Source of the DNA: a virus
Virus record (IMG/VR): IMGVR_UViG_3300045988_126465
Coordinates: 8,657-40,656 of that record
Length of the DNA: 32,000 nt
Direction: 5' to 3' (one strand)
Shown here: in pieces, positions 4,676-30,698 of the stretch
How the letters are laid out: each line of letters opens with the position of its first letter
How positions within the stretch are numbered: the stretch's first letter is position 1
Made by a program: the position numbers and the translations under genes
The notes under the pieces: generated by a model
What the model was told of the DNA's origin: nothing
What the model saw: only the letters and a program-made list of their open reading frames with translations
The model's database searches: none

Positions 4676-5230
4676 ATGAATGATTATATAAGTTTTCTAT
4701 GCACATTATTAAATATAAAGATTCCAAAAGTTTACTTTAAAGCAAATGATAAGGTTTATGATCTTAAACATAAACCAGTCAATAAAGAACTTTTTCAAGT
4801 GAAAGATACAAGCGTATGCACATCCTACCCAAAAGAAAATGTGATTTGTGTAAACCTGAATACATCCATAATAGATACTAGTGTAGTTTATATATATCTT
4901 GCGCATGAAATAAGGCATTTATATCAATATTCATGTGTATATAATAAGAATCAAAAAGTATTTTCTATGGATGAAAGAAGTGTATCTATATGGAAAAAGG
5001 AACTTGAAAGTTATAAGGATTCAAGCAGCAAACACTATGAGAATCAGGAAATAGAAAAAGATGCAAACTTGTTTGCGAACTTTATAGCGATAGTGATATT
5101 TAAAAGAGTTTTGGATATAAAAGAAGTTGACAAAAAAGAATATGAGTTTAAAACTAAACTTTTCATGAACTTTTTCGCATCGAGTCCAGTCAAAAAAAAG
5201 CTGATTCAAAAAGAAATGAGAAGACATTAA
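4676..5230 (+). CDS. HExxH-motif protein (putative zinc metallopeptidase-like)
   Basis: 184-aa ORF. It carries the motif YIYLAHEIRHLYQY (HEIRH). No SD is present. A TATAAT at 4664-4669 ends 7 nt before the ATG, so the mRNA may be leaderless. Confidence 0.5.
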   Translation: MNDYISFLCTLLNIKIPKVYFKANDKVYDLKHKPVNKELFQVKDTSVCTSYPKENVICVNLNTSIIDTSVVYIYLAHEIRHLYQYSCVYNKNQKVFSMDERSVSIWKKELESYKDSSSKHYENQEIEKDANLFANFIAIVIFKRVLDIKEVDKKEYEFKTKLFMNFFASSPVKKKLIQKEMRRH

Positions 5231-5232
5231 AA

Positions 5233-5257
5233 AAAAGGACTTTTTACAAGTCCTTTT
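5233..5257. terminator. bidirectional intrinsic terminator
   Basis: AAAAGGACTT-tttac-AAGTCCTTTT forms a 10-bp stem with an A-run and a T-run on either side. It lies between convergent genes 4676..5230(+) and 5244..5801(-). Confidence 0.7.
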
Positions 5258-5801
5258 CAATTTGTTTAAATAGTGAAGCAGTTCCGCGTGGTGCACGTTC
5301 AAACTCTTTAATAATATGTATATATTTACCATTCAATGATTTTTTACCATTCTTGTAATATATCCATGATCCTTTTATTATGCCGTATGATTCTTTTTCT
5401 ATTGCTTTTGGATGCTTGCGTGTTCCGGCCCATTCAATATATGAAAACATGCATTTTTGAAGTTTTAAAATCTTTTTTTCTTTCTTCTCTTTTTCAAGAT
5501 CTTTTTTCTTCTTTTCAAGTACCTGGATTATTTCAATTTTTGATAGTTCAATAAAATCAGGATCTAAACTATAGAAATTGGTTTCGTTGAAATATGATCC
5601 CGTATGATGCCAAGAACTACAGACTAGAAAAACTTTTAAAACTTCTTTGCTATATCTATTCAATTCATTCTCGTTAAAATCATTTCTAACATTTAAAACG
5701 CATTCAATAATATCTTTTTTAGTCCATTTTGAAAGTGGCTTTTCACCACTTTCATATGCTTCATAAGCGCGTTCACTCATTTTATTACCAATATATCCCA
5801 T
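5244..5801 (-). CDS. hypothetical protein (last gene of ArdA operon)
   Basis: 185 aa with an AGGAGG RBS. It has a conserved-looking N-terminus MSERAYEAYESGEKPLSKWTK, a SWHHTGSYFNETNFY motif and a Lys/Glu-rich linker. Confidence 0.65.
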   Translation of the reverse strand: MGYIGNKMSERAYEAYESGEKPLSKWTKKDIIECVLNVRNDFNENELNRYSKEVLKVFLVCSSWHHTGSYFNETNFYSLDPDFIELSKIEIIQVLEKKKKDLEKEKKEKKILKLQKCMFSYIEWAGTRKHPKAIEKESYGIIKGSWIYYKNGKKSLNGKYIHIIKEFERAPRGTASLFKQIEKDL

Positions 5802-5814
5802 ATCTTTTTACCTC

Positions 5815-6393
5815 CTAAAATGGAAACTCTTCAAGCATTTCATTTAATCTTTGCTGATCTGTAAGCAGCTTTTTCTTTTTCCTTGGTGCTGCTTTTTCGA
5901 TACTCATCTTTTCGATTTTACCATTATTATACACATAGCTTTCTTTAAGCTTGTTTCTATTAAAAACATCTATAGTTTTTGAATTAGTATTATAAGTAAA
6001 AAGCAAGCTTTTTGATCCAGGTTTACAGATCTTAAAAAGATCTGTATTTAAGATGTCTATATAACACTTGTAAATTTTGAAGAAATAACAGATATCTTTT
6101 ATTTCTTGAATATCTGGTGTATATAACTCTTTTTTTGCTTCTGTATTATAAAATAACTGAATATCATAGTTGAAAAGCTTATCAAGATCATGAGCGACAA
6201 AAAGCCTTAATTCATTTGTTTGAACGGCTGCATACATGCATTTATTATGATCAAACTTAAAGCTATGATCTTTTAAAATTTTTTCAGTTGAAGCGCTGGG
6301 AGTTCCTAACGCTTCAACGTAAATGTGTGGTTTCTTTCGCTCATTTGTAATATAATAATTAAAATGAGCTTTTTCACGCTTCCATGTTGTCAT
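5815..6393 (-). CDS. hypothetical protein
   Basis: 192 aa with an AGGAGG RBS. It overlaps the upstream gene by 20 nt. Confidence 0.65.
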   Translation of the reverse strand: MTTWKREKAHFNYYITNERKKPHIYVEALGTPSASTEKILKDHSFKFDHNKCMYAAVQTNELRLFVAHDLDKLFNYDIQLFYNTEAKKELYTPDIQEIKDICYFFKIYKCYIDILNTDLFKICKPGSKSLLFTYNTNSKTIDVFNRNKLKESYVYNNGKIEKMSIEKAAPRKKKKLLTDQQRLNEMLEEFPF

Positions 6394-6604
6394 TTTTAAG
6401 GCCTCCTAAAATGTCTAAAATGCATAAAGTATTTACAAGCTGCCAAAGTTCACGCGGTTTAAGCATCCAGGCCACAACGTCAAGCCCGTAAGATAAATTA
6501 TATAAACCGTTTAAATGTTTTGTTATTGTGTAAGGTTTGCAGCTAGATCCATTTAGTTGATCTAGTTTTTTTTCTGTAAATTCAATATATTCTTTGTTAT
6601 TCAT
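6374..6604 (-). CDS. hypothetical protein
   Basis: The start was chosen at the ATG at 6604 (MNNKEYIEF...), which lies 8 nt after GGAGG. The track start at 6619 lacks an RBS. Confidence 0.55.
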   Translation of the reverse strand: MNNKEYIEFTEKKLDQLNGSSCKPYTITKHLNGLYNLSYGLDVVAWMLKPRELWQLVNTLCILDILGGLKNDNMEA

Positions 6605-6606
6605 TT

Positions 6607-6879
6607 TTAAAACCTCCATTCATTATCTTCAAAAATAGTTATAACAAGTGTATAAAGTTCTTTGCTTACTTGTTTAGAATCAACTAAAAGTTGATCATAA
6701 TAAACGCGTATAACTTTTTCATTTTCGAAATAAGCAAGATCATAAACAAATGATTCAATATGATCCGCTAAACACTCATAAAGAAAATCATACACGACAA
6801 AATTACCAGAAATAAGATCATTCATATATGATCTTATTCTTGCATATTTATGCAATAACTTAACTTCTAAAAGTTCCAT
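6607..6879 (-). CDS. hypothetical protein
   Basis: 90 aa with an AGGAGG RBS. Confidence 0.6.
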   Translation of the reverse strand: MELLEVKLLHKYARIRSYMNDLISGNFVVYDFLYECLADHIESFVYDLAYFENEKVIRVYYDQLLVDSKQVSKELYTLVITIFEDNEWRF

Positions 6880-6890
6880 TGTTTAACCTC

Positions 6891-7034
6891 CTAAATAATA
6901 TAAATAGCGCATGATATCGAAAAGATTGAAAGAATTAAAACGATTGAAAAAATAAAGTATTCAATCAATCTAATAAATGCAAGCGTGAGCACCTCAGCGG
7001 TGCTCATATTGTCAAGTTTTTTACGTGTTAGCAT
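6891..7034 (-). CDS. 47-aa TM micro-protein coupled to ardA (below ORF-track cutoff)
   Basis: Its ATG overlaps the ArdA stop (ATGCTAA). My translation is MLTRKKLDNMSTAEVLTLAFIRLIEYFIFSIVLILSIFSISCAIYII. Confidence 0.4.
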   Translation of the reverse strand: MLTRKKLDNMSTAEVLTLAFIRLIEYFIFSIVLILSIFSISCAIYII

Positions 7035-7528
7035 GTGTAAATAACCCCGTTTGAAGTTTCATAATAACCATCGAAACCAAGATCACGCGCGAATGCTTTA
7101 TAGTCAAAGTATGTTTGCGCAATTTCCGGAAGGTTGTAACATTCTTCTACAATTTCATAGGCCACATCTTCCAACGTCATACCTTCATAAAAAGTATAGT
7201 TTTCACTTTCTAAGTATCCTAATGCATCCGTATAGCTGCATACTTCCATTAATGCGGTGAATTCGCTTTCATTATCTTCTAATGCTTCAGCCACTTCATT
7301 AATATCGTCAATGTTTGGATATTCACCGAATGCATCATACATATCAAATAATGAGCAATCATAATCAGTAATAAACCATTCTTCATACATTGTATTTTCT
7401 TTCACTCCAATGTTTTCGAGTTCCTTTTTAAAATCATCTTCATCGATTGGAAAATCAATCCATTTACCAACTAAATAACCCTCGTTATACTTTCCTAAAT
7501 TTGTTATATAAGCTTTCATTTCACACAT
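7028..7528 (-). CDS. ardA: antirestriction protein ArdA (DNA mimic, anti type I R-M)
   Basis: An AAGGAGG RBS sits 8 nt upstream. The N-terminus KAYITNLGKYNEGYLVGKWIDFPID and the C-terminal YFDYKAFARDLGFDG match the hallmark ArdA signature (compare Tn916 Orf18 YIANLGKYNEGELVGAWFTFPID ... YIDYQAYGRDL). The protein is strongly acidic. Confidence 0.88.
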   Translation of the reverse strand: MCEMKAYITNLGKYNEGYLVGKWIDFPIDEDDFKKELENIGVKENTMYEEWFITDYDCSLFDMYDAFGEYPNIDDINEVAEALEDNESEFTALMEVCSYTDALGYLESENYTFYEGMTLEDVAYEIVEECYNLPEIAQTYFDYKAFARDLGFDGYYETSNGVIYTC

Positions 7529-7684
7529 GATCTTTACCTCCTTAATATTCTATAGATCCCATTTGTTTTTTAAGTAAAAAGCTAAACTAGTAAAATTTAT
7601 AAATAGTGAAACATACATGATAAAATCTTTCATTGTTTGCACCGCTTAAACATGATAAAATGTAAGTAGGTAAGCTATTTGGAG

Positions 7685-7837
7685 TTAACCAAATAGCCTA
7701 TCTAAAAGCCACTCAATGGCTTTGCTACCGGATGCGCATGCGATTGAAATTATTAGGTTGAAGAATAACAATTTGAAATAATCGCGTTCGCGTCTTTTTT
7801 GTTCATATTTATGAACTCTTGATAGCTTACGTTTCAT
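7685..7837 (-). CDS. 50-aa basic/TM micro-protein (candidate)
   Basis: GAAAGGAAAAAAC precedes the ATG on the minus strand. My translation is MKRKLSRVHKYEQKRRERDYFKLLFFNLIISIACASGSKAIEWLLDRLFG. Confidence 0.35.
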   Translation of the reverse strand: MKRKLSRVHKYEQKRRERDYFKLLFFNLIISIACASGSKAIEWLLDRLFG

Positions 7838-7926
7838 GTTTTTTCCTTTCTAGTCACTTAAGACACTTACAGAATAAAACAAACGTTTTACATTGTCAAG
7901 CAAAAAATGAAATGAATGTTTGGTTA

Positions 7927-7955
7927 TTGCAAAAAAACGTTTGATATTATAAAAT
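7927..7955 (+). promoter_or_regulatory. candidate sigma-A promoter of the HTH gene with AAACGTTT palindrome in the spacer
   Basis: TTGCAA (7927-7932), then 17 nt, then TAAAAT (7950-7955). The palindrome AAACGTTT occurs at 7935-7942 and again at 7881-7888. Confidence 0.35.
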
Positions 7956-7983
7956 GAATATAGAACGGGAGGGCGCATATTAT

Positions 7984-8190
7984 ATGAAAGAAAATCAAAT
8001 TATTGCAGCACTTGCTTATGCTCATAAGAATCAACAAGATATCGCGGATTCGTTTGGATGCACCAAACAAAATATAAGTACTAGAATTAAACGCGAAAAG
8101 TTCACGGATGAAGAGCTAGAAAAAATGGCGCAAGCGATAGGCGCAAGATACAAATGCTATTTTGAATTTGAAGACGGCACGAAAATATAA
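7984..8190 (+). CDS. small helix-turn-helix DNA-binding protein (Cro/XRE-like)
   Basis: The ATG at 7984 lies 10 nt after GGGAGGG. The HTH-like segment is QQDIADSFGCTKQNISTRIKREK. Confidence 0.6.
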   Translation: MKENQIIAALAYAHKNQQDIADSFGCTKQNISTRIKREKFTDEELEKMAQAIGARYKCYFEFEDGTKI

Positions 8191-8252: not shown

Positions 8253-8320
8253 GCGCCTATTTAAAAGGCTTTTAAGCGTGTTCGGTTGTAGTCTTATAAG
8301 ATATAGTTATAAGACTTGTG
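8253..8320 (+). repeat. copy B of the duplicated two-hairpin element (partner at 2621-2680)
   Basis: GCCTATTTAaaAGGCTTTTAA, then TAGTCTTATAAGATATAGTTATAAGAC. Hairpin 2 is a perfect 9-bp stem, GTCTTATAA / TTATAAGAC. Confidence 0.6.
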
Positions 8321-8334
8321 TATATGTACTATAT

Positions 8335-8359
8335 GGACGTGGTGAGCGTCCTTTTTTTT
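8335..8359 (+). terminator. intrinsic terminator
   Basis: GGACG-tggtgag-CGTCC followed by T8. Confidence 0.7.
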
Positions 8360-8888
8360 GTGTGGTTTGCTTCAGCTCCAGGAAGACAAGCGACACGCTG
8401 AGCGCATGACATGGTGCATATAATCCAATGTATTGAAGTAGTGAAATGTTTATTGCATATATAAGAACGTGCGCGCGTGTTCTATTAATGTAGTCATGGT
8501 CATGGTATGAAAGAACGCTTACAACAAGACATGTTGAAAAATGTTTCAACACAATAATAAATATATGAATGTCATATGATTGAAGCTGTGAGCGGTGCGG
8601 TGTGGTGGTAGCTGCATAGGTTTGATTTTTAACCCTGAAAGCGCCCAGGGCTGGGATCAGATCAGCAGATACCCCCCTATCTTTCAAAAGTTTTTTGCGT
8701 TTTGGGGAACGGCGTGGGGAGTTTAAAAAAACTGGGTCATGAGTGCATGAGAGGGGGTAAAATCTGAATTTCTTCATTTTGTACAGTGTACAAAGAAAAA
8801 CCGTGATATTCTGTAGTCGTGAAGATTGGAAAACATCTTCTAGAACAAACAAGGTAGTTCTTGGATTGTTTCATTTTAGTGCCCGTTG
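8360..8888 (+). ncRNA. candidate large structured non-coding RNA (about 530 nt) and/or cos region
   Basis: There is no credible ORF. My hand count gives about 50% G+C over 8581-8760, against AT-rich flanks. Multiple local and nested helices are present (8532-8551, 8633-8650, 8689-8696/8726-8733, 8673-8678/8752-8757). The region is bounded by + strand terminators. Strand and identity are unverified. Confidence 0.3.
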
Positions 8889-21962: not shown

Positions 21963-23552
21963 ATGATTCATTTATTCTTTTCTAGAAAAAAAACAACATA
22001 TGCACAAATGAAAGAACGTAATGGAGATGTGATTTTAAAACATTGTATAAGTGCTAAGGCAGTGTTTGAAAGAAATTCTATTTGGTACGTAGAAATAGAA
22101 TTTCCAAAAAGTGATTTGATGGGTATGGAAATCAGTGATGAGTCCGTGTTTAAAGTGGATATAAATTTTGAAGAACCTCAGTTATATAGAATTGCGTATC
22201 CAAAATACAACAAACAAAGCGATACATATACATGCTATGCAACACATGTGTTCTTTGATTCTCAAAAAGAAGTGTTTGTGTTTGATGATCGTACTATGAG
22301 TGGTACGTGGCAAGATGCAGTGAATACCGCAAATGAGATTATTACAAATTCACGGCCCAATTATCCTTATAAAATTTATGGTCATGGGGAATATGCAAAT
22401 TATACAAATGTTAATGCAGAGGATGAAAAAATCATTTATTTCCGAAATGTTCAGAATAGTGGGTATTGTTTGGACGTTCCAAGCGCAAGTGAAGATGCAT
22501 CTATACAATTACAGACATATCAAAGAAACAGAACATCTGCACAGACTTTCATGTTGAAAAAAGTAGGGTCAGACAAATATGGAGATATATATGGAATTTT
22601 ATCATTATGTTCGTGTAGGTGGCTTAAATTGGATTCAGGAAAGGTTGTGTTAGGAAGTCTTTCCGAAAGCCCTTCAGATAATTCTGAGAAATGGTGGTTC
22701 ATTAAGAGTGGATCTAATTATGAAATTGCACCGTATATAAACATATATTATGGCATCTATACTAGTTCAACGAGTATTGGCAACGGCAACAAAGTAATTG
22801 TTGCTGATAGAGGTACTTCCGAAGTTGGAAATGCGTGTAAATGGATGATTGAAGATGTGGATTCTACACAAACGGCATATTGGGTTCGATATAATCTGAT
22901 TCAATGTTTGTTTGGCACAGAAGAAAATTCTATGATGAACAGATGGCCCGAATGTGAAAATAACAGATATGTTGCGATGTTCAACAATTATGACTGTTAT
23001 TTTGGAAATCAAGATTACTATGCTTCCAATTTGAAGCCAAATGGTTTCTTTATAAGTAATAAAGAAATGTCTGAATACACAAAAAAGAAGTCAATGGAAA
23101 ATGTAGTTACAGGAATCATACCGAAAGCGTACAATGGACGACTTCTACCGAATAACGAGATCGTTAAGGCTAGTAATTGGGATACAGATGAAATTCATAG
23201 AATTGATGTAAAAGAATATTCCGATATCAAATTGATTGCGGATGATTCACAAGCAAAGAAAACAACACTGGGCGTATTTACAAATGAAGTGAACCTAAGA
23301 AACTATCTTAGAATACAAGCTAAAAAATCTTTAGAAAAAGAGTTACAAGAACCTAATACAGAAACGTCTGTTAAATTTGAAGAATTATTTCCATACAATG
23401 TGCCGAATGCACAGACGTTAAAAATAAATGATTCAATTTTTGTAGAGACTGATTTTGGAAAACGAGAAAGGTTTTATTTAAACAAATTGACCTATAACTT
23501 GATTACGGAACGACCTGAAGATTTAGACCTTGTATTAGAAAGTGAGGTATAA
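21963..23552 (+). CDS. tail-associated protein (Tal-like) with inserted ricin-type beta-trefoil lectin domain
   Basis: 529 aa, the second gene after the tape-measure gene. The internal segment GYCLDVPSASEDASIQLQTYQRNRTSAQTF ... EKWWF ... ACKWMI resembles three QxW-type repeats. Confidence 0.6.
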   Translation: MIHLFFSRKKTTYAQMKERNGDVILKHCISAKAVFERNSIWYVEIEFPKSDLMGMEISDESVFKVDINFEEPQLYRIAYPKYNKQSDTYTCYATHVFFDSQKEVFVFDDRTMSGTWQDAVNTANEIITNSRPNYPYKIYGHGEYANYTNVNAEDEKIIYFRNVQNSGYCLDVPSASEDASIQLQTYQRNRTSAQTFMLKKVGSDKYGDIYGILSLCSCRWLKLDSGKVVLGSLSESPSDNSEKWWFIKSGSNYEIAPYINIYYGIYTSSTSIGNGNKVIVADRGTSEVGNACKWMIEDVDSTQTAYWVRYNLIQCLFGTEENSMMNRWPECENNRYVAMFNNYDCYFGNQDYYASNLKPNGFFISNKEMSEYTKKKSMENVVTGIIPKAYNGRLLPNNEIVKASNWDTDEIHRIDVKEYSDIKLIADDSQAKKTTLGVFTNEVNLRNYLRIQAKKSLEKELQEPNTETSVKFEELFPYNVPNAQTLKINDSIFVETDFGKRERFYLNKLTYNLITERPEDLDLVLESEV

Positions 23553-23553
23553 C

Positions 23554-24150
23554 ATGGCAATTGTGTACAATGATTTAACCGTTAGTTTAACGAAGCCAAA
23601 CGACAACTTGATTGTTGAAATGGTAAGAGCTGATTCGGGGCGAGGATTAAGAATTTTTGTAAGTGATGATGTGATTACTAGTAATAGCTCAAATGCTGAT
23701 GAATCTTTGCATGCGATTTTATGGACTAAAAAGCCGAGTGGATTAATGGTTAGCATTGGCTCTACATCTGTATCAAGGTTTGAAAACTCAAATGCATACG
23801 AAATTGAATTTTCAGATACAGAAGCTTTTCAAAATATTTTGGCCGAATTAGGGATTTGTGAATGCCAGGTGACATTAGAATCTAGTGGAACGTTTGTCAC
23901 TACTTTTAATTTTAAAATTAAGGTTGTTGATAATCTTGCAGCGCAGGAATCGTTAGAATCGACTGAAGAATACAAATCTATGATGGAATTGGTTGCGAAA
24001 GCAAATGCATATAAAAATGAATTAGAAAATTATGTGGCTCAATTTAAAAATCAACTGAAATTAACAGTTAATGTTAGATATGGTACTTCAGACCCTGTTG
24101 TACAAGATGGTGATAAAGCTGGAGATATCTATATCAAATATGAGGAGTAG
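23554..24150 (+). CDS. baseplate protein with BppU-like N-terminal Ig domain
   Basis: The ATG at 23554 follows GTGAGGT. VRADSGRGLRIFV ... GICECQVTLESSGTFVTTFNFKIKV resembles the BppU_N signature (QGDxxSR.l.f.l ... F.f.V). Confidence 0.5.
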   Translation: MAIVYNDLTVSLTKPNDNLIVEMVRADSGRGLRIFVSDDVITSNSSNADESLHAILWTKKPSGLMVSIGSTSVSRFENSNAYEIEFSDTEAFQNILAELGICECQVTLESSGTFVTTFNFKIKVVDNLAAQESLESTEEYKSMMELVAKANAYKNELENYVAQFKNQLKLTVNVRYGTSDPVVQDGDKAGDIYIKYEE

Positions 24151-24153
24151 TGT

Positions 24154-25200
24154 ATGACTGTTTTAGCAACATTACCATATAATCAGTATTTAATACTTAC
24201 GTTTGAATCTTACAATGAGCGATATGAAGGTTCATATCCGAATTTAAAATTTAAAGCGGATGTAAGGTTTAAATATACCGGAAACTTCAAAATCCAAGCA
24301 ACCAATGTTGTTACGCTTGGAGGACTTTCTAAAACTATTTCAAGATGGGATTTAAATTATATCCAGGATTCAGGATGGTATTATCTAGGACAAATAAATG
24401 AACCTATGTATTGCAATAGGCAACGGTCTTTTGAATGGGGTGCAAGTTGTCAAGGATGGCCTAATTTATCAGGAATAGCAAGATTGACTACACCTGAGAT
24501 TGATTTGCCAACGTATGAAGCAGAGATATCAGATATTAATAGTACCTCAATTTCTATTTATGGAAGGCTAAAAACAAATCCTTATAATTTGTATACTTTG
24601 CGTATTTATTCAAAAGCAACGCAAAAATTTATTTTGGATAGATTAAACGGAACACATATTGTAAGCGAATTGAAAGGTTCGACAAGTTATGAATTTCATA
24701 TTGAACCATTTATGACCGACTGTTCGGGATCGTATTTACTTCAAACAGTCTTAGAAGCAACGACATTGGAAGACTATAAAAAAATATCTGTTACGAGTGT
24801 AGATGTAACTATATCTCATATTGATGATAAGTATGATAAAGCAGTGTGCGTTGCACATACAACGGATGATGCACATGTTACAAAGAGTCATTGGGATTAT
24901 GATGGTATGGGAAGTGATTTAACTTCAGATAATCTTACAAAGGAATTTAAAGTTCCGAATGGGAATGAGCGTAGAATGCTTGTTTATGTAACAGATACTT
25001 TAGGAAGAACGAGTGATTGGTTTTACTTTTTTATCATTGCATCTGCATCTTTTAGAGAAGTATGGGTGTTTGATGGAAATAATTGGAAAAAAGGAAAATC
25101 ACTTGTTTTGAGTAGTGATGGAAAAACATTTGAGAAATGTAGACTTTATTGTGATACAGGACTCGAATGGAAAGGTGCAAAAAGATACGGAGAGGATTAA
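24154..25200 (+). CDS. tail/baseplate structural protein
   Basis: 348-aa ORF in the baseplate module. A central FN3-like segment (SISIYGRLKTNPYNLYTLRIYS...STSYEFHIEP) is inferred. Confidence 0.45.
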   Translation: MTVLATLPYNQYLILTFESYNERYEGSYPNLKFKADVRFKYTGNFKIQATNVVTLGGLSKTISRWDLNYIQDSGWYYLGQINEPMYCNRQRSFEWGASCQGWPNLSGIARLTTPEIDLPTYEAEISDINSTSISIYGRLKTNPYNLYTLRIYSKATQKFILDRLNGTHIVSELKGSTSYEFHIEPFMTDCSGSYLLQTVLEATTLEDYKKISVTSVDVTISHIDDKYDKAVCVAHTTDDAHVTKSHWDYDGMGSDLTSDNLTKEFKVPNGNERRMLVYVTDTLGRTSDWFYFFIIASASFREVWVFDGNNWKKGKSLVLSSDGKTFEKCRLYCDTGLEWKGAKRYGED

Positions 25201-25202
25201 AA

Positions 25203-25496
25203 ATGGAAATTAAAAGAGATCATATTTTCATAAATCAAGGAGATACCATCTATACAGATATTTTAATTAAGTATAAGAATGGACAAGTATTTATTCCTGG
25301 TAAGGATGATTCTTTAGAATTCATTATTTATAAAGATGGCAAAGAATATATCAGAATTCCTATTGATGAATCTTTGAAGGTGATTTGCCAAACGGATGAA
25401 CTTTCTGTTGGTGTTTATAATTGGATGGTTCGTATTGATGTAAATGGAATTAAAGAAACGCCATTAAAAGGAATTCTTCAAGTGAAAGGAGTTTAG
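25203..25496 (+). CDS. small structural protein (Ig-like)
   Basis: The ATG at 25203 follows GGAGAGG. About 97 aa and beta-rich. Confidence 0.45.
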   Translation: MEIKRDHIFINQGDTIYTDILIKYKNGQVFIPGKDDSLEFIIYKDGKEYIRIPIDESLKVICQTDELSVGVYNWMVRIDVNGIKETPLKGILQVKGV

Positions 25497-27480: not shown

Positions 27481-27774
27481 ATGAGTGGTGAATATCTTAG
27501 CGTTATTATTTCTGCATGCATGCTTGTAATTGCATTTATTACGTATAATCGTGGCACACGAAAGATGGATGGAGAGCAAATATCCAATATGGCATTTTTG
27601 AAGAATGAATTAGAACATATTAAATCGGATTTAGGTGATATTAAAGATTCAATTTCAGAAATAAAAAAAGGAAGCAATTCAATGGAAGTGGAGCTTTCAG
27701 AACTAAAACAACAAATAAAAACTTTGTTTAATCGTGTAGAAGCGTTGGAGGAACGTAATAAAAATGGATATTAA
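27481..27774 (+). CDS. N-terminally anchored coiled-coil membrane protein (BhlA/UviB- or XhlA-like)
   Basis: 97 aa with a TM helix (LSVIISACMLVIAFITY) followed by heptad-like coiled coil. It sits in the tail-fibre/lysis interval where such proteins occur in Firmicute phages. Confidence 0.45.
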   Translation: MSGEYLSVIISACMLVIAFITYNRGTRKMDGEQISNMAFLKNELEHIKSDLGDIKDSISEIKKGSNSMEVELSELKQQIKTLFNRVEALEERNKNGY

Positions 27775-27997
27775 AGATGCAAACAAGAAACTTCAAAATG
27801 TAGAAGAAAAAGTAGATAACATTTATGGTTTTTGCTCAAAATTAATTGATAGAAACTATAAAACAAGTAGAACGATTATTACGATTTTAATCCTTGTAAT
27901 TATTGTTCTTTATTCTACTATTGTTTGTCGTGTTTATTGGAAAGATGATCATGTGAATAATTGTTCTTGCAAAGCTAATTCAAACCAACGAATTTAA
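27764..27997 (+). CDS. small single-pass membrane protein
   Basis: 77 aa with a GAGGAA RBS and the TM helix IITILILVIIVLYSTIV. Confidence 0.5.
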   Translation: MDIKDANKKLQNVEEKVDNIYGFCSKLIDRNYKTSRTIITILILVIIVLYSTIVCRVYWKDDHVNNCSCKANSNQRI

Positions 27998-28005
27998 TTA
28001 AGGCG

Positions 28006-28239
28006 GTGGTTTATATTAACAAAGCTAACAGATTAAAAGAAATACGTCCTAATGATGCATTAATACTTATCAAATCTGTTGGATTAAGAAAGAAATATGA
28101 ACAGGTTTTGATTATGAGATACGTGTATGATATGTCATGCACGGAAATTGCAGATGCATTATGTGTGGAAGTACAAACCATAAGGAACAGAGTATGCAAA
28201 GCAAGAAAAATGTTCGATAAATATGTGAGCAATCTATAA
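28006..28239 (+). CDS. sigma-70 region-4-only HTH protein
   Basis: KKYEQVLIMRYVYDMSCTEIADALCVEVQTIRNRVCKARKMF matches the ECF/sigma-70 region 4 pattern (R.v..l.....s..EIA..l....gTV..r..rAr..l). The exact start is uncertain because the GTG at 28006 is too close to AAGG. Confidence 0.5.
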   Translation: MVYINKANRLKEIRPNDALILIKSVGLRKKYEQVLIMRYVYDMSCTEIADALCVEVQTIRNRVCKARKMFDKYVSNL

Positions 28240-28258
28240 TGGTTGCTCATTTTATTTT
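28226..28258 (+). terminator. intrinsic terminator
   Basis: TGAGCAA (28226-28232) pairs with TTGCTCA (28243-28249) and is followed by TTTTATTTT. Confidence 0.65.
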
Positions 28259-28337
28259 AGGTATTTTATGAGTATTATTCGAGTATTAAATTATTTGTTG
28301 CGTAACCATATAATTAAAGCGTAAAGAGGTGGTTGAA

Positions 28338-28778
28338 ATGTATAACAATTATAATCCAGCACAAGCACGAATTGACAGTTTGATGCAGCAAAGACAAATG
28401 ATAGATCAACAAATTCAGCAAGTACAACAGTATGCAAATATTCCACCTATCAACATTAATAATCAGATTACACCACAACAACAAGGTAATTTTGATTTTA
28501 ATGGAAAATGGGTGAACGATGAGCAGGAAGCTAGAAACTTTGCGAATGCAAATTTACCAACGATTTTATTTGATAACAATAAATCTATTTTTTATATGAA
28601 ATCTTTAGATGGAACATTTAAAAAATTTAAATTTGAAGAAATCACGGAAGATACTTCTAACAGTATCGAAAATCGTGTAAATGGAATCGAAAAGAAATTA
28701 GATGATTTGATATGTGCATTAAGCAAACCACCAAAACAAGCTAATGAGCAACCAAAGAAAGGAGCACAAACAAAATGA
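28338..28778 (+). CDS. Gln-rich hypothetical protein
   Basis: The ATG at 28338 follows AGAGGTGG. The N-terminal half is Q/N-rich (LMQQRQMIDQQIQQVQQYANIPPININNQITPQQQ). Confidence 0.6.
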   Translation: MYNNYNPAQARIDSLMQQRQMIDQQIQQVQQYANIPPININNQITPQQQGNFDFNGKWVNDEQEARNFANANLPTILFDNNKSIFYMKSLDGTFKKFKFEEITEDTSNSIENRVNGIEKKLDDLICALSKPPKQANEQPKKGAQTK

Positions 28779-29017
28779 ATCCTTTAAAAAGTATTATGGG
28801 TAATATGAATCCAATGAATATGATGAATATGGGGAATCCCCAACAAATGTTAATGAATATGCTATCACAGAAAAATCCACAAGCATTTCAACAATTTCAA
28901 ATGCTTATGAACAGTGGTCAAAATCCACAAATGATTTTAAATCAGATGATGGGTAATTTAAATCCACAACAAAAGCAACAACTTCAACAAATGGCAAAAC
29001 AGTTTGGAATCAGGTAA
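28775..29017 (+). CDS. Met/Gln/Asn-rich NPQ-repeat protein
   Basis: 80 aa with an ATGA overlap with the upstream gene. It has 16 Met and six NP dipeptides in repeats of the type NPQQMLMNML / NPQMILNQMM. Confidence 0.6.
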   Translation: MNPLKSIMGNMNPMNMMNMGNPQQMLMNMLSQKNPQAFQQFQMLMNSGQNPQMILNQMMGNLNPQQKQQLQQMAKQFGIR

Positions 29018-29058
29018 CAACGGATAAACCGTTATTATAGAAAGAAAGGAGAACATAT

Positions 29059-29682
29059 ATGATGGAAAATGGAATGGGAATTCAACCAACTTACAACTTA
29101 GCTGAAAGAGATGACGGCTTTGGAAACGGTGGAGGTTGGTGGATTTGGATCTTGCTAATCTTCGTATTATTTGGATATGGAGGATATGGAAATGGAAACC
29201 TAACAAATGATTCTTTATTAAATGAAGAATTCATTAAACGAGACATTTTTAACACAAACACAAATGTATCTCAAACAGGTTGTCAAACTCAACGTGATGT
29301 ATTAGAAAGTCGCTATACTAATCAGTTAGGACTTCAAAACTTGCAAGCTCAGCAACAAGAATGCTGCTGCAACACTCAAAGAGCAATTGACAATGTAAAT
29401 GCTCAAAGTTTCAAAAATACTTGTGACATTACAACAGCAATTCATTCAGAAGGTGAAGCAACACGTGCGTTGATCAATGCAAACACTATGCAAGAATTAC
29501 GTGATCGTTTAGCTGATCGTGACCGTGATTTATTGACGGCTAATTTCCAATTAAGTCAACAGGCACAATCAGCAAACATTATTAATACTTTGCAACCAAC
29601 ACCAAAACCAGCTTACATTACATGTTCACCATATTACGCTTATAACAACGGATGTGGATGTAATGGCTACAACAACTTATAA
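29059..29682 (+). CDS. Gly-rich TM / Cys-rich protein
   Basis: AAGGAG RBS. It has GNGGGWWIWILLIFVLFGYGGYGNGN (a TM helix flanked by Gly runs) and Cys clusters QQQECCCNTQ and NNGCGCNGYNNL. Confidence 0.6.
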   Translation: MMENGMGIQPTYNLAERDDGFGNGGGWWIWILLIFVLFGYGGYGNGNLTNDSLLNEEFIKRDIFNTNTNVSQTGCQTQRDVLESRYTNQLGLQNLQAQQQECCCNTQRAIDNVNAQSFKNTCDITTAIHSEGEATRALINANTMQELRDRLADRDRDLLTANFQLSQQAQSANIINTLQPTPKPAYITCSPYYAYNNGCGCNGYNNL

Positions 29683-29723
29683 TCTAGCACATATGTGATT
29701 AGGCAATTGCCTTTGGATTTAAT

Positions 29724-29751
29724 GGGATAGTCGAAAGGCTATCCCTATTTT
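29724..29751 (+). terminator. intrinsic terminator
   Basis: GGGATAG-tcgaaagg-CTATCCC followed by TATTTT. Confidence 0.6.
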
Positions 29752-29769
29752 AATAGGAGGATAAAAGAA

Positions 29770-30189
29770 ATGATTAATAGTATTGCTACGGCTGTTCAGA
29801 CAGTCGATAATTCAAATAATGTTTTGTTTCCTACAGATCGTGTAAGATCAAAATCATGCCAGTGTCCATGTAAAGGTTGGCTTGCTCATGATCTAGGAAG
29901 TGGATTGTTTACACTAACAAAGCCAGGCATATATGAAGTAACTTATACTGCGGATATTACGAGTGCAGTGGCAGGACAAGCTTCTTTAGTGCTTGAACTA
30001 AACGGAGAAGCAATTGGTGGAACACAATCTATTTATACTGTTGCAACTGCAAGTGCATACGGAAATGTGAGTGGAGACACTCTAATTCAAGTTCCATGTG
30101 GTGCATCTTATACAATTGCATTAGCAAATAACAGTGGTTTAGACTTAACTGTTCAAAATGCAAACATTATCATTAAAAAGATTGCGTAG
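29770..30189 (+). CDS. stand-alone TNF/C1q-like jelly-roll protein (BclA-CTD / BxpB / Ena-like pattern) with N-terminal CxCxC
   Basis: AGGAGG RBS. The pattern LFTLTKPGIYEVTYTADITS...SLVLELNGEAIGG...GNVSGDTLIQVPCGASYTIALANNS...VQNANIIIKKI is like exosporium BclA C-terminal domain and BxpB proteins. The N-terminal region carries SCQCPC. This is a motif-level call only. Confidence 0.45.
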   Translation: MINSIATAVQTVDNSNNVLFPTDRVRSKSCQCPCKGWLAHDLGSGLFTLTKPGIYEVTYTADITSAVAGQASLVLELNGEAIGGTQSIYTVATASAYGNVSGDTLIQVPCGASYTIALANNSGLDLTVQNANIIIKKIA

Positions 30190-30198
30190 GTGAAAAAT

Positions 30199-30672
30199 AT
30201 GCATAAAGCAATGGAAGTTAATGAAAAGATAATGCATGAGTCAGTAAACATGTTAGAGAAATATGGATATGCAGAATCTTATTTCCATGCATTATCTCAA
30301 GCTTTAGATAATATCAAAGACATTGAAACGATAGAAGCAATGAGAAATAAATATCAAATTGAGATAGGAAAAGATGGAGTTTCAACTGTTGCAAGATTAA
30401 AAGAAGATAATGATGGATATAATATTCATGATCCAGAAACAGAAGATATTGTTTATAAACTTGCAGAACATTTGAAAAAATATAAAGCGTTCAAAGAAGA
30501 ATATAAGCGTACAAAAGGTGAGATGGATTTAGAAAAGTCTCATCGTGAATTAGATAAGACTATGAAATGTATGCAACAAATCGTAACTATGATTCATGAA
30601 TGCGTTGATTCAGATGAAGAAAAAACAATGATTAAGACACATATACGAGACATGTTTAATATGTATCAATAA
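30199..30672 (+). CDS. acidic helical hypothetical protein
   Basis: The ATG at 30199 lies 5 nt after AGGTGA, in frame with the track ORF at 30190. Confidence 0.55.
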   Translation: MHKAMEVNEKIMHESVNMLEKYGYAESYFHALSQALDNIKDIETIEAMRNKYQIEIGKDGVSTVARLKEDNDGYNIHDPETEDIVYKLAEHLKKYKAFKEEYKRTKGEMDLEKSHRELDKTMKCMQQIVTMIHECVDSDEEKTMIKTHIRDMFNMYQ

Positions 30673-30698
30673 GGCCGTTAAATACGGTCTTTTATTTT
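30672..30698 (+). terminator. intrinsic terminator
   Basis: AGGCCGT-taaat-ACGGTCT (one G-U pair) followed by TTTTATTTT. Confidence 0.6.

What the first reader, a model, noticed from the sequence alone, without database searches (positions are those of the whole stretch)
28338..30672. Pre-lysis cargo operon of Q/N/M-rich, Gly/Cys-rich and TNF-like jelly-roll proteins reminiscent of spore-surface or appendage components
Five + strand genes lie between the receptor-binding protein and the holin. They form two terminator-delimited units (terminators at 28226-28258, 29724-29751 and 30672-30698). A perfect TATAAT is present at 28309-28314.

None of the products resembles a standard virion or lysis protein:
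- a Gln-rich protein (28338..28778);
- an 80-aa protein with 20% Met and six NPQ-type repeats (NPQQMLMNML, NPQMILNQMM), similar in style to eukaryotic STI1/ubiquilin Met/Gln repeats that bind hydrophobic segments;
- a protein with a Gly-flanked TM helix (GGGWWIWILLIFVLFGYGGYG, like YjcZ-type sporulation peptides) plus Cys clusters (ECCC, CGCNG);
- a 139-aa stand-alone TNF/C1q-like jelly roll whose pattern matches BclA-CTD/BxpB exosporium proteins and which carries an N-terminal SCQCPC, reminiscent of the Cys-rich N-terminal connectors of disulfide-crosslinked Ena endospore-appendage subunits;
- an acidic helical protein.

The combination of a Cys-rich crosslinkable jelly roll, a Cys-rich membrane-anchored partner and Q/M-rich putative chaperones suggests a self-assembling surface structure. 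It could be a virion decoration, a host-surface or spore-surface modifier, or a superinfection barrier. I do not know of a described equivalent in phages.
Basis: inference. Interest (0 to 1): 0.66.

Follow-up and report, generated by a model that had tools for sequence, protein, structure and literature searches.

The report
Mobile cysteine-rich phage accessory gene cassette
The five genes are real and belong to a very widespread, uncharacterised gene cassette that moves as a block between phages of gut Firmicutes; it appears to make a cysteine-rich protein assembly containing a BclA-like (TNF-fold) protein, and its function is unknown.

Summary
All five ORFs, the three hairpin terminators, the TATAAT box and the odd amino-acid compositions are present as described.

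The genes are a conserved block, here called P1 to P5.
- The order is P1 (Gln-rich), P2 (Met/Gln-rich), P3 (hydrophobic helix, coiled coil, invariant CCC), a small beta protein in slot 4 (P4), then P5.
- This order recurs in all 16 P3 sequence clusters (about 70% identity) among 196 loci.
- The block sits at different genome positions: after tail fibres, between holin and lysin, after the lysin, in the head module, and in early regions.
- It is often preceded by a small sigma-70 region-4 protein and a terminator. In the window that protein is X3 (28006-28239).

P4 is a complete stand-alone BclA_C/TNF-like domain (Pfam score above the curated cut-off). The P1 and P3 families each have at least 7,000 clusters at 90% identity, with no name, no Pfam domain and no structural relative.

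The links to Ena, STI1 and YjcZ failed HMM tests. A spore-specific role is doubtful, because carriers include Butyrivibrio and Coprococcus phages and a likely virulent phage. No protein has an export signal.

My best reading (confidence 0.4) is an autonomous accessory operon that builds a membrane-tethered P3-P4 assembly. The main rival is a virion fibre or receptor-binding module.

The parts
27481..27774 (+). X1: 97-aa protein with an N-terminal transmembrane helix and a coiled coil (XhlA/'hemolysin'-like). A possible upstream member of the cassette.
   Evidence: KD19 hydropathy 1.96. Proteins of similar build (N-terminal hydrophobic helix plus coiled coil; no homology to X1 detected by jackhmmer) precede the sigma-r4 gene and cassette in head-module copies far from any lysis gene: L005 5679-6029 and L001 1351-1776.
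27764..27997 (+). X2: 77-aa small membrane protein with a C-terminal CSC motif. Linked to the cassette only in close relatives.
   Evidence: KD19 hydropathy 2.83. Present with X3 in L004, L011 and L012.
28006..28239 (+). X3: 77-aa protein consisting only of sigma-70 region 4 (helix-turn-helix). Putative dedicated regulator of the cassette.
   Evidence: Pfam Sigma70_r4_2, E 5.8e-09, 35.9 bits against a cut-off of 25.7. PHROGs hits to sigma factor and Q-like antiterminator families. A small HTH protein of similar size and C-terminal sequence lies immediately upstream of P1, or one gene further in L001, in six further lineages (L012, L064/L189, L005/L013, L177, L174 and L176); jackhmmer links it to X3 only in close relatives.
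28225..28250 (+). Intrinsic terminator overlapping the X3 stop codon. It insulates the cassette from the upstream late genes.
   Evidence: Folding energy -14.0 kcal/mol, z -5.0. A hairpin plus T-run lies at the same place in L189, L005, L177, L174, L001, L012 and L008.
28286..28314 (+). Promoter-like element TTAAAT-17 nt-TATAAT.
   Evidence: Sequence. The same TTAAAT-17-TATAAT element occurs in L012, which shares about 77% P4 identity. It is below the scanner's -35 threshold. In more distant lineages an extended -10-like TGnTAAAAT or CATAAT directly follows the terminator T-run (read by eye).
28338..28778 (+). P1: Gln/Asn-rich protein with an N-terminal helix, a disordered linker, a small novel beta domain and a C-terminal helix.
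   Evidence: phrog_21718, unknown function. The family has at least 7,298 clusters at 90% identity, all unnamed. AF2 model: mean pLDDT 71, about 90 in the core at residues 57-98. No PDB structural match (best E 0.24). Only uncharacterised gut-phage proteins match in BFVD.
28775..29017 (+). P2: 80-aa Met/Gln/Asn-rich protein with NPQ repeats and a conserved C-terminal ...QFGI[KR] motif.
   Evidence: A 66-100-aa ORF with 39-57% M+Q+N+P sits between P1 and P3 in 14 of 16 P3 clusters. No Pfam family, including STI1, matches at E <= 0.1.
29059..29682 (+). P3: acidic N-tail, Gly-flanked hydrophobic helix, about 110 aa of helix/coiled coil with an invariant CCC, a TCSPY motif and a C-terminal GCGC.
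   Evidence: invariant C102-104, C122, H129, C189, P191. The family has at least 8,000 clusters with no Pfam domain and no name. The AF2 monomer model is poor (pLDDT 46) but helical. The charge pattern (N-tail 0.6 K/R against 3.2 D/E) suggests an N-out, C-in topology.
29724..29745 (+). Hairpin terminator or attenuator (GAAA loop) between P3 and P4. There is no room for a promoter before P4.
   Evidence: Folding energy -15.4 kcal/mol, z -4.4. Conserved, with the loss of one base pair, in L189 as GGGTAGTCGAAAGGCTACCC.
29770..30189 (+). P4: stand-alone BclA_C / TNF-C1q-like jelly-roll protein of 139 aa, with a Cys-rich loop (C30, C32, C34).
   Evidence: Pfam PF18573, 42.2 bits against a cut-off of 38, E 9e-11. 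phrog_20016 matches full length, E 3e-18. Profile against PDB: the top five sequences are BclA, E 0.07-0.24, covering the whole domain. 983 clusters at 50% identity, almost all 130-150 aa.
30190..30672 (+). P5: acidic helical protein of 160 aa. The GTG start abuts the P4 stop codon; an ATG at 30199 is an alternative start.
   Evidence: Homologues occupy the slot after P4 in L001, L002, L005, L174, L177, L180 and L181. Other lineages have a DUF7841 protein or an R/G/Y-rich version there.
30671..30691 (+). Intrinsic terminator closing the cassette, upstream of the holin gene.
   Evidence: Folding energy -10.1 kcal/mol, z -4.1.

Best explanation
**What it is.** The region is a horizontally mobile, transcriptionally insulated accessory operon, moron-like, of temperate and some apparently lytic siphophages of Clostridia and Erysipelotrichia.

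**Shown**
- The block P1-P2-P3-slot 4-P5 is inherited as a unit and re-inserted at many genome positions.
- In the window and several lineages it is bracketed by terminators.
- It is frequently preceded by a small protein made only of sigma-70 region 4 (X3 in the window).
- P4 is a complete BclA-C/TNF-like domain.
- P3 carries invariant cysteines.

**Inferred mechanism**
- X3 activates the promoter that lies directly behind the upstream terminator.
- All products are made in the cytoplasm.
- P3 inserts its Gly-flanked hydrophobic helix into the membrane, N-out and C-in, and forms an oligomeric coiled-coil stalk.
- The Cys-rich distal part of P3 recruits the P4 trimer. In some phages an unrelated small Cys-rich beta protein takes P4's place.
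- The result is a split, alpha-helical analogue of the BclA design of anchor, stalk and TNF-like knob, held together by Cys-mediated links (disulfide or metal).
- Met/Gln-rich P2 shields the P3 hydrophobic helix before insertion.
- Gln-rich P1 and helical P5 act as scaffolds or adaptors.
- The attenuator between P3 and P4 sets the stoichiometry.

**Role.** The assembly serves the phage in the producing cell, at the cytoplasmic membrane. It is neither a spore-coat component nor a core virion part. Its ultimate role (for example control of the envelope or of lysis, exclusion, or material released at lysis) is not resolved.
For: **Co-inheritance**
- jackhmmer over 181-210 loci finds P1, P3 and P4 collinear in every divergent locus examined.
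- Across 16 P3 clusters at about 70% identity: 15 have P1, 14 have the small M/Q/N/P-rich ORF, 12 have a BclA_C-like P4 and 4 have another small protein in that slot.

**Portability**
- Between tail-fibre/XhlA-like genes and the holin: window, L004, L011.
- Between holin and endolysin: L189, L073.
- After the lysin: Ceridwen L003, L008, Dulem 33.
- Between an SPP1-gp7-like minor capsid gene and the scaffold gene: L001, L005-7, L013, L174, L210.
- After an integrase: L002.
- After KilA/antirepressor and before recombinase and thyX in C. perfringens phages.
- HNH homing endonucleases are inserted inside the block or immediately after P4 in three lineages.

**Insulation and regulator**
- Stable terminators.
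- The regulator-terminator-promoter arrangement recurs in other lineages.
- The window lineage is temperate, with the cassette next to the lysis-integrase end of the prophage.

**Cytoplasmic synthesis and membrane tether**
- No signal peptides are visible in the sequences.
- P3 has an acidic N-tail and a hydrophobic core (KD13 about 2.3-2.7) across 41 sequences.

**P4 fold and cysteines:**

**P4 is a stand-alone protein, not the tip of a longer fibre:** nearly all of the best 150 representatives are 130-150 aa.

**No match to known systems or other replicons**
- No defence-system match.
- No match to plasmids.
- No match to structural or lysis PHROGs.
Against: - No experiment or expression data exist.
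- The P3-P4 interaction, the oligomeric state and the topology are all inferred. The AF2 monomer model of P3 is poor, and no multimer prediction could be run.
- No Rosetta-stone fusion of P3 with P4 was found. The fusions seen look like deletions or chimeras.
- The hydrophobic core of P3 is short (about 12-13 residues; KD19 only 1.54), so it may not span a membrane.
- TNF-like jelly rolls are typical receptor-binding heads or knobs in phages.
- In many lineages the cassette directly follows tail-fibre genes.
- The abundant L064/L073/L189 lineage shows no other receptor-binding gene after a 337-aa Tal.
- Swapping of the slot-4 protein with P3 kept constant resembles the exchange of receptor-binding heads.
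- The promoter assignment rests on a consensus -10 box only.
Confidence: 0.4

Rival explanations
1. The cassette is a virion module. P3 (coiled-coil shaft) plus P4 (TNF-like head) would form a two-piece receptor-binding fibre, tail-needle-like tip or capsid decoration. P1, P2 and P5 would be assembly chaperones or adaptors. The cassette would be a portable adsorption device.
For: - TNF/C1q-like jelly rolls are common fibre knobs in phages (established knowledge; for example the Sf6 needle knob, PMC3741392, listed).
- The cassette lies directly after large tail-fibre or receptor-binding genes in the window, the L069/L085/L088/L166 group, L184 and L209.
- The L064/L073/L189 lineage (53 loci) runs TMP, Dit, a 337-aa Tal, holin, X3, cassette, lysin, integrase, with no other receptor-binding candidate.
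- In other phages it sits inside the head module.
- It is always on the strand of the late genes.
- Slot 4 alternates between unrelated beta proteins while P3 is kept.
- It is present in an apparently virulent phage.
Against: - The position is not fixed. It also occurs after the lysin, after an integrase and in an early/replication region. That is unusual for parts that must dock on a specific virion site.
- It is insulated by terminators and has its own -10 box and its own regulator.
- It contains hydrophobic membrane-type helices in P3, S, X1 and X2 and a low-complexity Met/Gln protein.
- P3 and P4 are strongly conserved, and evolve at equal rates, across phages assigned to different host families. 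That is unlike receptor-binding heads.
- No PHROGs or Pfam hit to any tail, baseplate or decoration family.
- P4 has no N-terminal shoulder or shaft.
Confidence: 0.25
2. The cassette performs lysogenic conversion of the spore surface. The proteins would be made in the mother cell of a sporulating lysogen and built into the coat or exosporium.
For: - The BclA_C domain.
- The only non-phage relatives of P4 found are chromosomal, monocistronic, extremely Cys-rich proteins. In the one long chromosomal contig recovered, a SpoIVB-type Peptidase_S55 gene lies about 6 kb away and an AC-16-CATAGAGTG motif, SigK-like by eye, lies upstream.
- No signal peptides, as for coat proteins.
- Compositional parallels with coat and exosporium proteins: Cys-rich, Gln-rich and Tyr/Arg/Gly-rich proteins and a ferritin homologue in related cassettes.
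- The window lineage is temperate, with the cassette at the lysis-integrase end.
- C. perfringens phages carry it.
Against: - Hosts include Butyrivibrio fibrisolvens, Coprococcus comes and a Solobacterium MAG. To my knowledge these are described as non-spore-forming.
- Ceridwen is reported as lytic and probably virulent.
- The promoter upstream of P1 looks sigma-A-like (TATAAT), not SigE- or SigK-like.
- HMM tests for Ena (DUF3992), F-ENA (DUF4183) and YjcZ were negative.
Confidence: 0.1
3. The cassette is a membrane-level superinfection exclusion, defence or lysis-timing device expressed from the prophage or late in infection.
For: - Moron-like architecture and a favoured position next to the lysis genes.
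- Several small membrane proteins: X1, X2, P3, and S in relatives.
- In one lineage the cassette is inserted between holin and endolysin.
Against: - No PADLOC match.
- Five to eight genes with Cys-, Gln- and Met-rich structural-looking products and a TNF-like trimer is far more elaborate than known exclusion or antiholin systems.
- Head-module and early-region copies lie far from the lysis genes.
Confidence: 0.1

Closest known systems
BclA C-terminal domain (PF18573; TNF/C1q-like trimeric knob of the Bacillus exosporium nap)
   Same: All of P4 aligns to this domain above Pfam's curated cut-off. BclA chains are the top PDB profile hits. Cysteine-rich partners occur in the same system, as in the exosporium.
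   Different: - P4 has no exosporium-targeting N-terminus and no collagen-like repeats. It is a stand-alone 139-aa domain.
- It is phage-encoded.
- It always travels with P1-P3, which have no counterpart in the BclA system.
- It carries a Cys-rich loop that BclA lacks.
Phage morons (transcriptionally autonomous promoter-gene-terminator inserts such as lambda bor/lom and the HK97 morons)
   Same: - Inserted between modules of the late region at positions that vary between related phages.
- Bracketed by intrinsic terminators, with a sigma-A-type -10 box.
- Often at the lysis-integrase end of a prophage.
   Different: - Much larger: 5-8 co-adapted genes with a dedicated regulator.
- Extremely widespread as a fixed block.
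- Also present in an apparently virulent phage.
- Expression from the prophage has not been shown.
Two-part or knobbed phage adsorption devices (lactococcal TP901-1 BppU/BppL baseplate; the TNF-like knob of the Sf6 tail needle)
   Same: A coiled-coil protein followed by a small jelly-roll trimer is encoded just upstream of the lysis genes. One lineage lacks any other receptor-binding gene.
   Different: - No sequence or HMM relation.
- P3 has a membrane-type hydrophobic helix.
- The cassette is insulated by terminators.
- It also occurs in head, early and post-lysin positions.
Cross-linked spore coat and exosporium proteins (CotY/ExsY, CdeC/CdeM, GerQ with Tgl, S/L-ENA subunits)
   Same: - Made in the cytoplasm without signal peptides.
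- Cys-rich, Gln-rich and Tyr-rich compositions.
- A ferritin-fold member in related cassettes.
- Chromosomal P4 relatives that look like coat proteins.
   Different: - No HMM membership in any of these families.
- The cysteines of P4 lie inside the jelly roll, not in an N-terminal connector.
- Hosts include non-sporulating genera.

Membership tests
BclA_C / TNF-C1q-like jelly roll (PF18573) | Sequence matches the family HMM above the curated gathering score, over the whole domain. | tested here: met
   42.2 bits against a cut-off of 38, E 9.1e-11; residues 39-139 align to model positions 33-128 of 128. Most close homologues carry the precomputed PF18573 annotation.
BclA_C / TNF-C1q-like jelly roll (PF18573) | Closest solved structures are BclA C-terminal domains. 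| tested here: inconclusive
   A profile of 28 homologues puts five BclA sequences (2r6q, 2z5w, 3twi, 3tyj, 1wck) among the top seven PDB matches, across the full domain, but at E 0.07-0.24.
BclA_C / TNF-C1q-like jelly roll (PF18573) | Forms a homotrimer. | not testable with these tools
   No multimer prediction is available.
BclA-type exosporium collagen-like glycoproteins | An N-terminal exosporium-targeting leader and collagen-like GXX repeats before the C-terminal domain. | tested here: not met
   P4 is 139 aa and the jelly-roll domain fills it. There are no GXX repeats. Nearly all of the best 150 representatives are 130-150 aa.
Endospore appendage subunits (S/L-ENA, DUF3992; F-ENA, DUF4183) | DUF3992 or DUF4183 domain, with an N-terminal connector or hook that precedes the beta-sandwich body. 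| tested here: not met
   No such Pfam hit at E <= 0.1 for P4 or for the alternative slot-4 protein. C30, C32 and C34 of P4 lie within the BclA_C-homologous body. F-ENA is defined by DUF4183 (PMC12357932).
STI1/ubiquilin-type Met/Gln repeats | Match to the STI1 domain model. | tested here: not met
   P2 gives no Pfam family at E <= 0.1. The resemblance is in composition only.
YjcZ family sporulation peptides (TIGR01732) | Match to the NCBIfam model; a tiny protein of about 50 aa. | tested here: not met
   No NCBIfam hit for P3 at E <= 0.1. P3 is 207 aa. Only the Gly-flanked hydrophobic stretch is alike.
Phage moron (autonomous insert) | Own promoter and terminator; inserted between genes of a late operon; position or presence varies among related phages. 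| tested here: met
   Stable flanking terminators and a consensus -10 box, and at least five different insertion contexts. This is met at the level of sequence pattern only.
Phage moron (autonomous insert) | Expressed from the repressed prophage. | not testable with these tools
   No transcript data are available.
Siphophage receptor-binding or baseplate proteins (Dit/Tal/BppU/BppL/RBP families) | HMM match to a tail, baseplate or RBP family. | tested here: not met
   PHROGs hits for P1, P3 and P4 are to families of unknown function only (phrog_21718, 16490, 9288, 20016); P2 and P5 have no PHROGs hit. Dit and Tal are found separately upstream.
Known anti-phage defence systems (PADLOC-DB) | HMM match of any component. 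| tested here: not met
   Only coiled-coil noise for X1, and nothing for P2-P5.
Ferritin-like superfamily (protein F of related cassettes; absent from the window) | Profile match to ferritins, and a conserved ferroxidase site. | tested here: inconclusive
   A profile of five F proteins matches many ferritins (best 1z4a, E 2.3e-05). The ferroxidase Glu and His positions look substituted in that alignment (read by eye).

The most novel reading that the evidence does not exclude
Many of the commonest siphophages of gut Firmicutes carry a portable kit for a previously unknown supramolecular structure. It would be a 'split BclA': a hydrophobically anchored, cysteine-linked coiled-coil stalk (P3) capped by a TNF-like trimer (P4). 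Gln- and Met-rich helper proteins would assemble it in the cytoplasm, under a dedicated regulator made only of sigma-70 region 4. This would be an exosporium-like nap built by a virus on a membrane, on virions, or as a matrix released at lysis.
Probability: 0.2. Interest if true: 0.85.

Novelty: categorically new. Interest (0 to 1): 0.62.

Why it matters
- **Abundance.** The P1 and P3 families each comprise at least 7,000-8,000 clusters at 90% identity in public metagenomes. The cassette is therefore one of the more abundant pieces of dark matter in gut Firmicute phages.
- **Signs of a co-adapted machine.** It is inherited as a fixed block, moves between genome positions, has its own regulator and insulation, and is invaded by homing endonucleases.
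- **Two possible pay-offs.** If it builds a cross-linked structure, it would be a new class of phage-encoded assembly. If it is an adsorption device, it would explain how an abundant phage lineage without a recognisable receptor-binding protein finds its host.
- **Testable now.** Cultured carriers exist: Butyrivibrio phage Ceridwen, C. perfringens phages CPD1, CPQ4, PMQ04 and 17DYC, and a Coprococcus comes MSK.16.63 prophage.

Tried and rejected
- **DNA similarity to deposited phages.** Only the endolysin matches.
- **Sequence-profile searches of the PDB.** For P1, P3, the alternative slot-4 protein and the peptidase-like protein there was nothing, or only noise. A 7-sequence P4 profile found nothing; a 28-sequence profile reached BclA only at E about 0.1.
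- **AF2 on P3.** pLDDT 46. Not usable, so no fold search was run on it.
- **Foldseek on the P1 model.** No PDB analogue. The BFVD hits are the same uncharacterised gut-phage family, with spurious automatic names such as 'Phosphoprotein' and 'zipper TF'.
- **F-ENA and A-ENA endospore appendages.** Read and rejected. F-ENA is DUF4183 and A-ENA is a helical hairpin with isopeptide bonds. Neither resembles any cassette protein.
- **Ena N-terminal connector, STI1 and YjcZ.** All rejected by HMM tests.
- **Defence system.** Rejected.
- **Plasmid carriage.** None.
- **Rfam and tRNA scans of the region.** Nothing.
- **Homology between BclA_C-like P4 and the alternative slot-4 protein.** hhalign probability 0.2, rejected.
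- **Rosetta-stone fusions.** The P1-P4 fusions (P0405, P0072) and the tail-fibre-P4 fusion (P0445) contain only partial domains. I read them as deletions or assembly chimeras.
- **Presence/absence in otherwise isogenic phages.** Attempted through the endolysin. Relatives with at least 79% identical lysin all carry the cassette, and those at 71% identity or less are different phages, so this was not informative.
- **Literature.** Seven searches found no description of this cassette.

Full report
**1. Observation**

The five + strand ORFs are present: P1 28338-28778, P2 28775-29017, P3 29059-29682, P4 29770-30189 and P5 30190-30672.

- P2 is 80 aa with 21% Gln, 20% Met and 16% Asn, no acidic residue and NPQ/NPM repeats.
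- P3 has 8 Cys, including CCC (102-104) and CGC (199-201), and the Gly-flanked core WWIWILLIFVLF.
- P4 has Cys at 30, 32, 34 and 110.
- P5 is acidic and helical.

Three terminator-like hairpins lie exactly in the intergenic gaps. Each is much more stable than shuffled sequence (z -4.1 to -5.0). TATAAT is at 28309-28314 with a weak TTAAAT 17 nt upstream.

The setting is the late region of a low-GC siphophage. Dit and Tal lie upstream. An r1t-type holin and a CHAP endolysin lie downstream. In a close relative, an integrase and a repressor follow the lysin (L020).

**2. A conserved, portable cassette**

*Initial evidence.* tblastn of P4 and P3 against deposited phages, together with protein look-ups, led to loci in very different phages with the same gene order.

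*Co-occurrence.* Iterative HMM searches over all ORFs of 181-210 fetched loci found P1, P3 and P4 collinear in every divergent locus. When 196 P3-bearing loci are grouped at about 70% P3 identity (16 clusters):
- 15 have a detectable P1.
- 14 have a 66-100-aa ORF with 39-57% Met+Gln+Asn+Pro between P1 and P3.
- 12 have a BclA_C-like P4.
- 4 have another small protein in that slot.

*Abundance.*
- P3: at least 8,000 clusters at 90% identity.
- P1: at least 7,298 clusters.
- P4: 983 clusters at 50% identity.
- None carries a name beyond 'hypothetical protein', and all contexts seen are phage or prophage.

*Insertion sites.*

| Position of the cassette | Loci |
|---|---|
| Between tail-fibre/XhlA-like genes and holin | window, L004, L011 |
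| Directly after 738-1052-aa tail fibres or a receptor-binding protein | L069, L085, L088, L166, L184, L209 |
| Between holin and endolysin | L189, L073 |
| After the lysin | Ceridwen L003, L008, Dulem virus 33 |
| Between an SPP1-gp7-like minor capsid gene and the scaffold gene | L001, L005-7, L013 (Coprococcus comes), L174, L210 |
| After an integrase | Dulem virus 39 |
| Downstream of KilA/antirepressor, before recombinase and thyX | C. perfringens phages CPD1, PMQ04, 17DYC |

HNH homing endonuclease genes are inserted inside the block or immediately after P4 in CPD1, Dulem virus 33 and Ceridwen.

**3. Extent and optional parts**

*Upstream regulator.* In the window the gene just upstream (28006-28239) encodes a 77-aa protein made only of sigma-70 region 4, and its stop codon overlaps the first terminator.
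- A small HTH protein of similar build (matching Sigma70_r4 only faintly), followed by a hairpin and T-run and then a -10-like element, precedes P1 in six further lineages: L012, L064/L189, L005/L013, L177, L174 and L176 (L001 has it one gene further upstream).
- In head-module copies, a protein with a transmembrane helix and a coiled coil, like window X1 (27481-27774), travels with it although no lysis gene is nearby.

*Members seen only in other lineages.*
- A 66-79-aa protein with a hydrophobic N-terminus and a coiled coil, here called S.
- A ferritin homologue, F. Its profile matches PDB ferritins at E 2e-05. The catalytic residues are apparently not kept.
- A 125-aa protein with invariant Cys, His and Asp, translationally coupled to P1 (phrog_3754).
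- Different proteins in slot 5: the window type, the same family with an Arg/Gly/Tyr-rich insert, or DUF7841.

*The P3/P4 hairpin.* The hairpin between P3 and P4 is conserved in L189 with the loss of one base pair. It leaves no room for a promoter, so P4 and P5 probably depend on read-through.

**4. What the proteins are**

*P4.*
- It is a complete BclA_C/TNF-C1q-like domain (Pfam score above the gathering cut-off). BclA is the best PDB match of the family profile.
- It is a stand-alone protein.
- Its Cys cluster lies in a loop just before an invariant G-W. It varies in pattern (SCQCPC, SCN-SCC, ACCGG, RRCACA) and is reduced in distant members.
- It is therefore not an Ena-type N-terminal connector.

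*P3.*
- It is under strong constraint, with 35 invariant positions among 34 sequences, including CCC, C122, H129, TCSP and the EFIKRDIF box.
- As a monomer it models only as low-confidence helices.
- Its N-tail is acidic and lacks the basic n-region of a signal peptide. The positive-inside rule then puts the helical, Cys-rich bulk in the cytoplasm. None of the other products shows a signal peptide either.

*P1.* It models as helix, linker, a small beta domain (pLDDT about 90) and helix. The fold is unmatched in the PDB.

*Negative tests.* The proposed links to STI1, YjcZ, DUF3992, DUF4183, known defence systems and tail or baseplate families all failed.

**5. Leads from relatives**

*Chromosomal P4 relatives.* The few long relatives of P4 (P0401, P0448, P0455) have extraordinarily Cys-rich N-terminal halves.
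- For P0401 and P0448, contigs were recovered; these genes are monocistronic bacterial chromosomal genes next to an Xaa-Pro peptidase gene. In the longest contig a SpoIVB-type peptidase gene lies about 6 kb away.
- An AC-16-CATAGAGTG motif lies upstream. I read it by eye as SigK-like; this is a weak point.
- The BclA_C-like fold joined to Cys-rich sequence may therefore be a coat-type module in spore-forming Clostridia.

*Against a spore-specific role.*
- Carriers include Butyrivibrio fibrisolvens phage Ceridwen, which was observed only in the lytic cycle and judged probably virulent (PMC7372960).
- Carriers also include a Coprococcus comes prophage and a Solobacterium MAG. To my knowledge these genera are non-sporulating.
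- The promoter looks sigma-A-like.

**6. Weighing the explanations**

*For a non-virion accessory operon.*
- The variable insertion sites.
- The insulation by terminators.
- The dedicated regulator.
- The membrane-type helices.
- The low-complexity Gln- and Met-rich proteins.
- The similarly high conservation of P3 and P4 across phages assigned to different host families.

*For a virion fibre or receptor-binding module.*
- The TNF-like fold.
- The frequent position after tail-fibre genes.
- The exchange of the slot-4 protein while P3 is kept.
- Above all, the abundant L064/L073/L189 lineage. It runs TMP, Dit, a 337-aa Tal, holin, X3, cassette, lysin and integrase, and has no other candidate receptor-binding gene.

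*Confidences.*
- Accessory, membrane-tethered P3-P4 assembly: about 0.4.
- Virion module: about 0.25.
- Spore-coat conversion: about 0.1.
- Exclusion or lysis control: about 0.1.
- The remainder is unassigned.

*Shown versus inferred.* The existence, extent, conservation, mobility and insulation of the cassette, the fold of P4 and the invariant cysteines are shown. Topology, the P3-P4 pairing, the chaperone role of P2, the regulatory role of X3 and the biological purpose are inferred.

**7. Novelty and verdict**

I found no library family with a known function, no solved structure apart from the BclA domain and the ferritin fold, and no paper in seven full-text searches that describes this cassette. 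It does not meet the defining features of any family it resembles. I therefore rate it as lying outside known kinds of phage systems, while stressing that its function is unresolved.

Interest is moderate to high. The cassette is very abundant and clearly co-adapted, and cultured phages that carry it make it testable. However, conserved unknown cassettes are common in phages, and an ordinary adsorption role remains possible.

Noticed in passing
L073 4439-13053; L189 1831-9762: An abundant temperate siphophage lineage (53 loci in the L064 cluster) has TMP, Dit and only a 337-aa Tal, followed by the holin. No tail-fibre or receptor-binding gene is visible. The cassette sits between holin and endolysin.
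   Followed up: partly
L205 8001-8780; L208 494-1585 (proteins P0401, P0448, P0455): For P0401 and P0448, bacterial chromosomal genes encode extremely Cys-rich proteins (CCNPCCC... and repeated NRRCDCDNSYS) fused to a P4-like BclA_C domain. They lie next to an Xaa-Pro peptidase gene. In L205 a SpoIVB-type peptidase gene lies about 6 kb away and a SigK-like motif (by eye) lies upstream. These look like undescribed coat or exosporium proteins of Clostridia.
   Followed up: partly
L181 4005-4655; L175 5401-5952 (- strand); L003 6377-7240: HNH-type homing endonuclease genes are inserted inside the cassette or immediately after P4 in three unrelated phages. Two of them lie between P2 and P3.
   Followed up: no
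L005 8444-9037; L001 4604-5197; L181 6322-6849; L210 11355-11957: An optional cassette member (phrog_17879) is a ferritin homologue (PDB profile E 2e-05). Its ferroxidase residues appear to be substituted.
   Followed up: partly
L003 4002-4379; L175 4325-4705; L179 700-1077; L178 4921-5340: A 125-aa protein (phrog_3754) with invariant Cys17, His97 and Asp108 is translationally coupled to Gln-rich P1 in four lineages. The order of the triad suggests a papain-like peptidase or a transglutaminase, reminiscent of Tgl acting on GerQ. There is no PDB or Pfam hit.
   Followed up: partly
L181 5364-5741; L184 5902-6285; L182 5309-5668: In C. perfringens phages and Dulem virus 36, slot 4 holds an unrelated protein of about 125 aa with an N-terminal Cys cluster (for example CNRRCNCCNRR) and a conserved ADQIRSR motif. 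It has no family or structure match.
   Followed up: partly
window 7028-7528 (- strand): An anti-restriction protein homologue (phrog_2059, E 9e-30) lies in a block of minus-strand genes (about 5244-7528, with a further minus-strand ORF at 8307-8852). GC skew changes sign at about 5000-8000.
   Followed up: no
Neither do the three ORFs before it (23542-25496).
   Followed up: no
L063 2744-3316: In one lineage the gene upstream of P1 encodes a 190-aa protein with N-terminal transmembrane helices fused to a C-terminal helix-turn-helix that resembles the small regulator.
   Followed up: no
proteins P0405, P0072, P0445 (metagenome representatives): Chimeric ORFs join the first ~130 residues of P1, or a tail-fibre N-terminal domain, to the C-terminal half of P4. 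They are probably deletions across the cassette or assembly chimeras.
   Followed up: no
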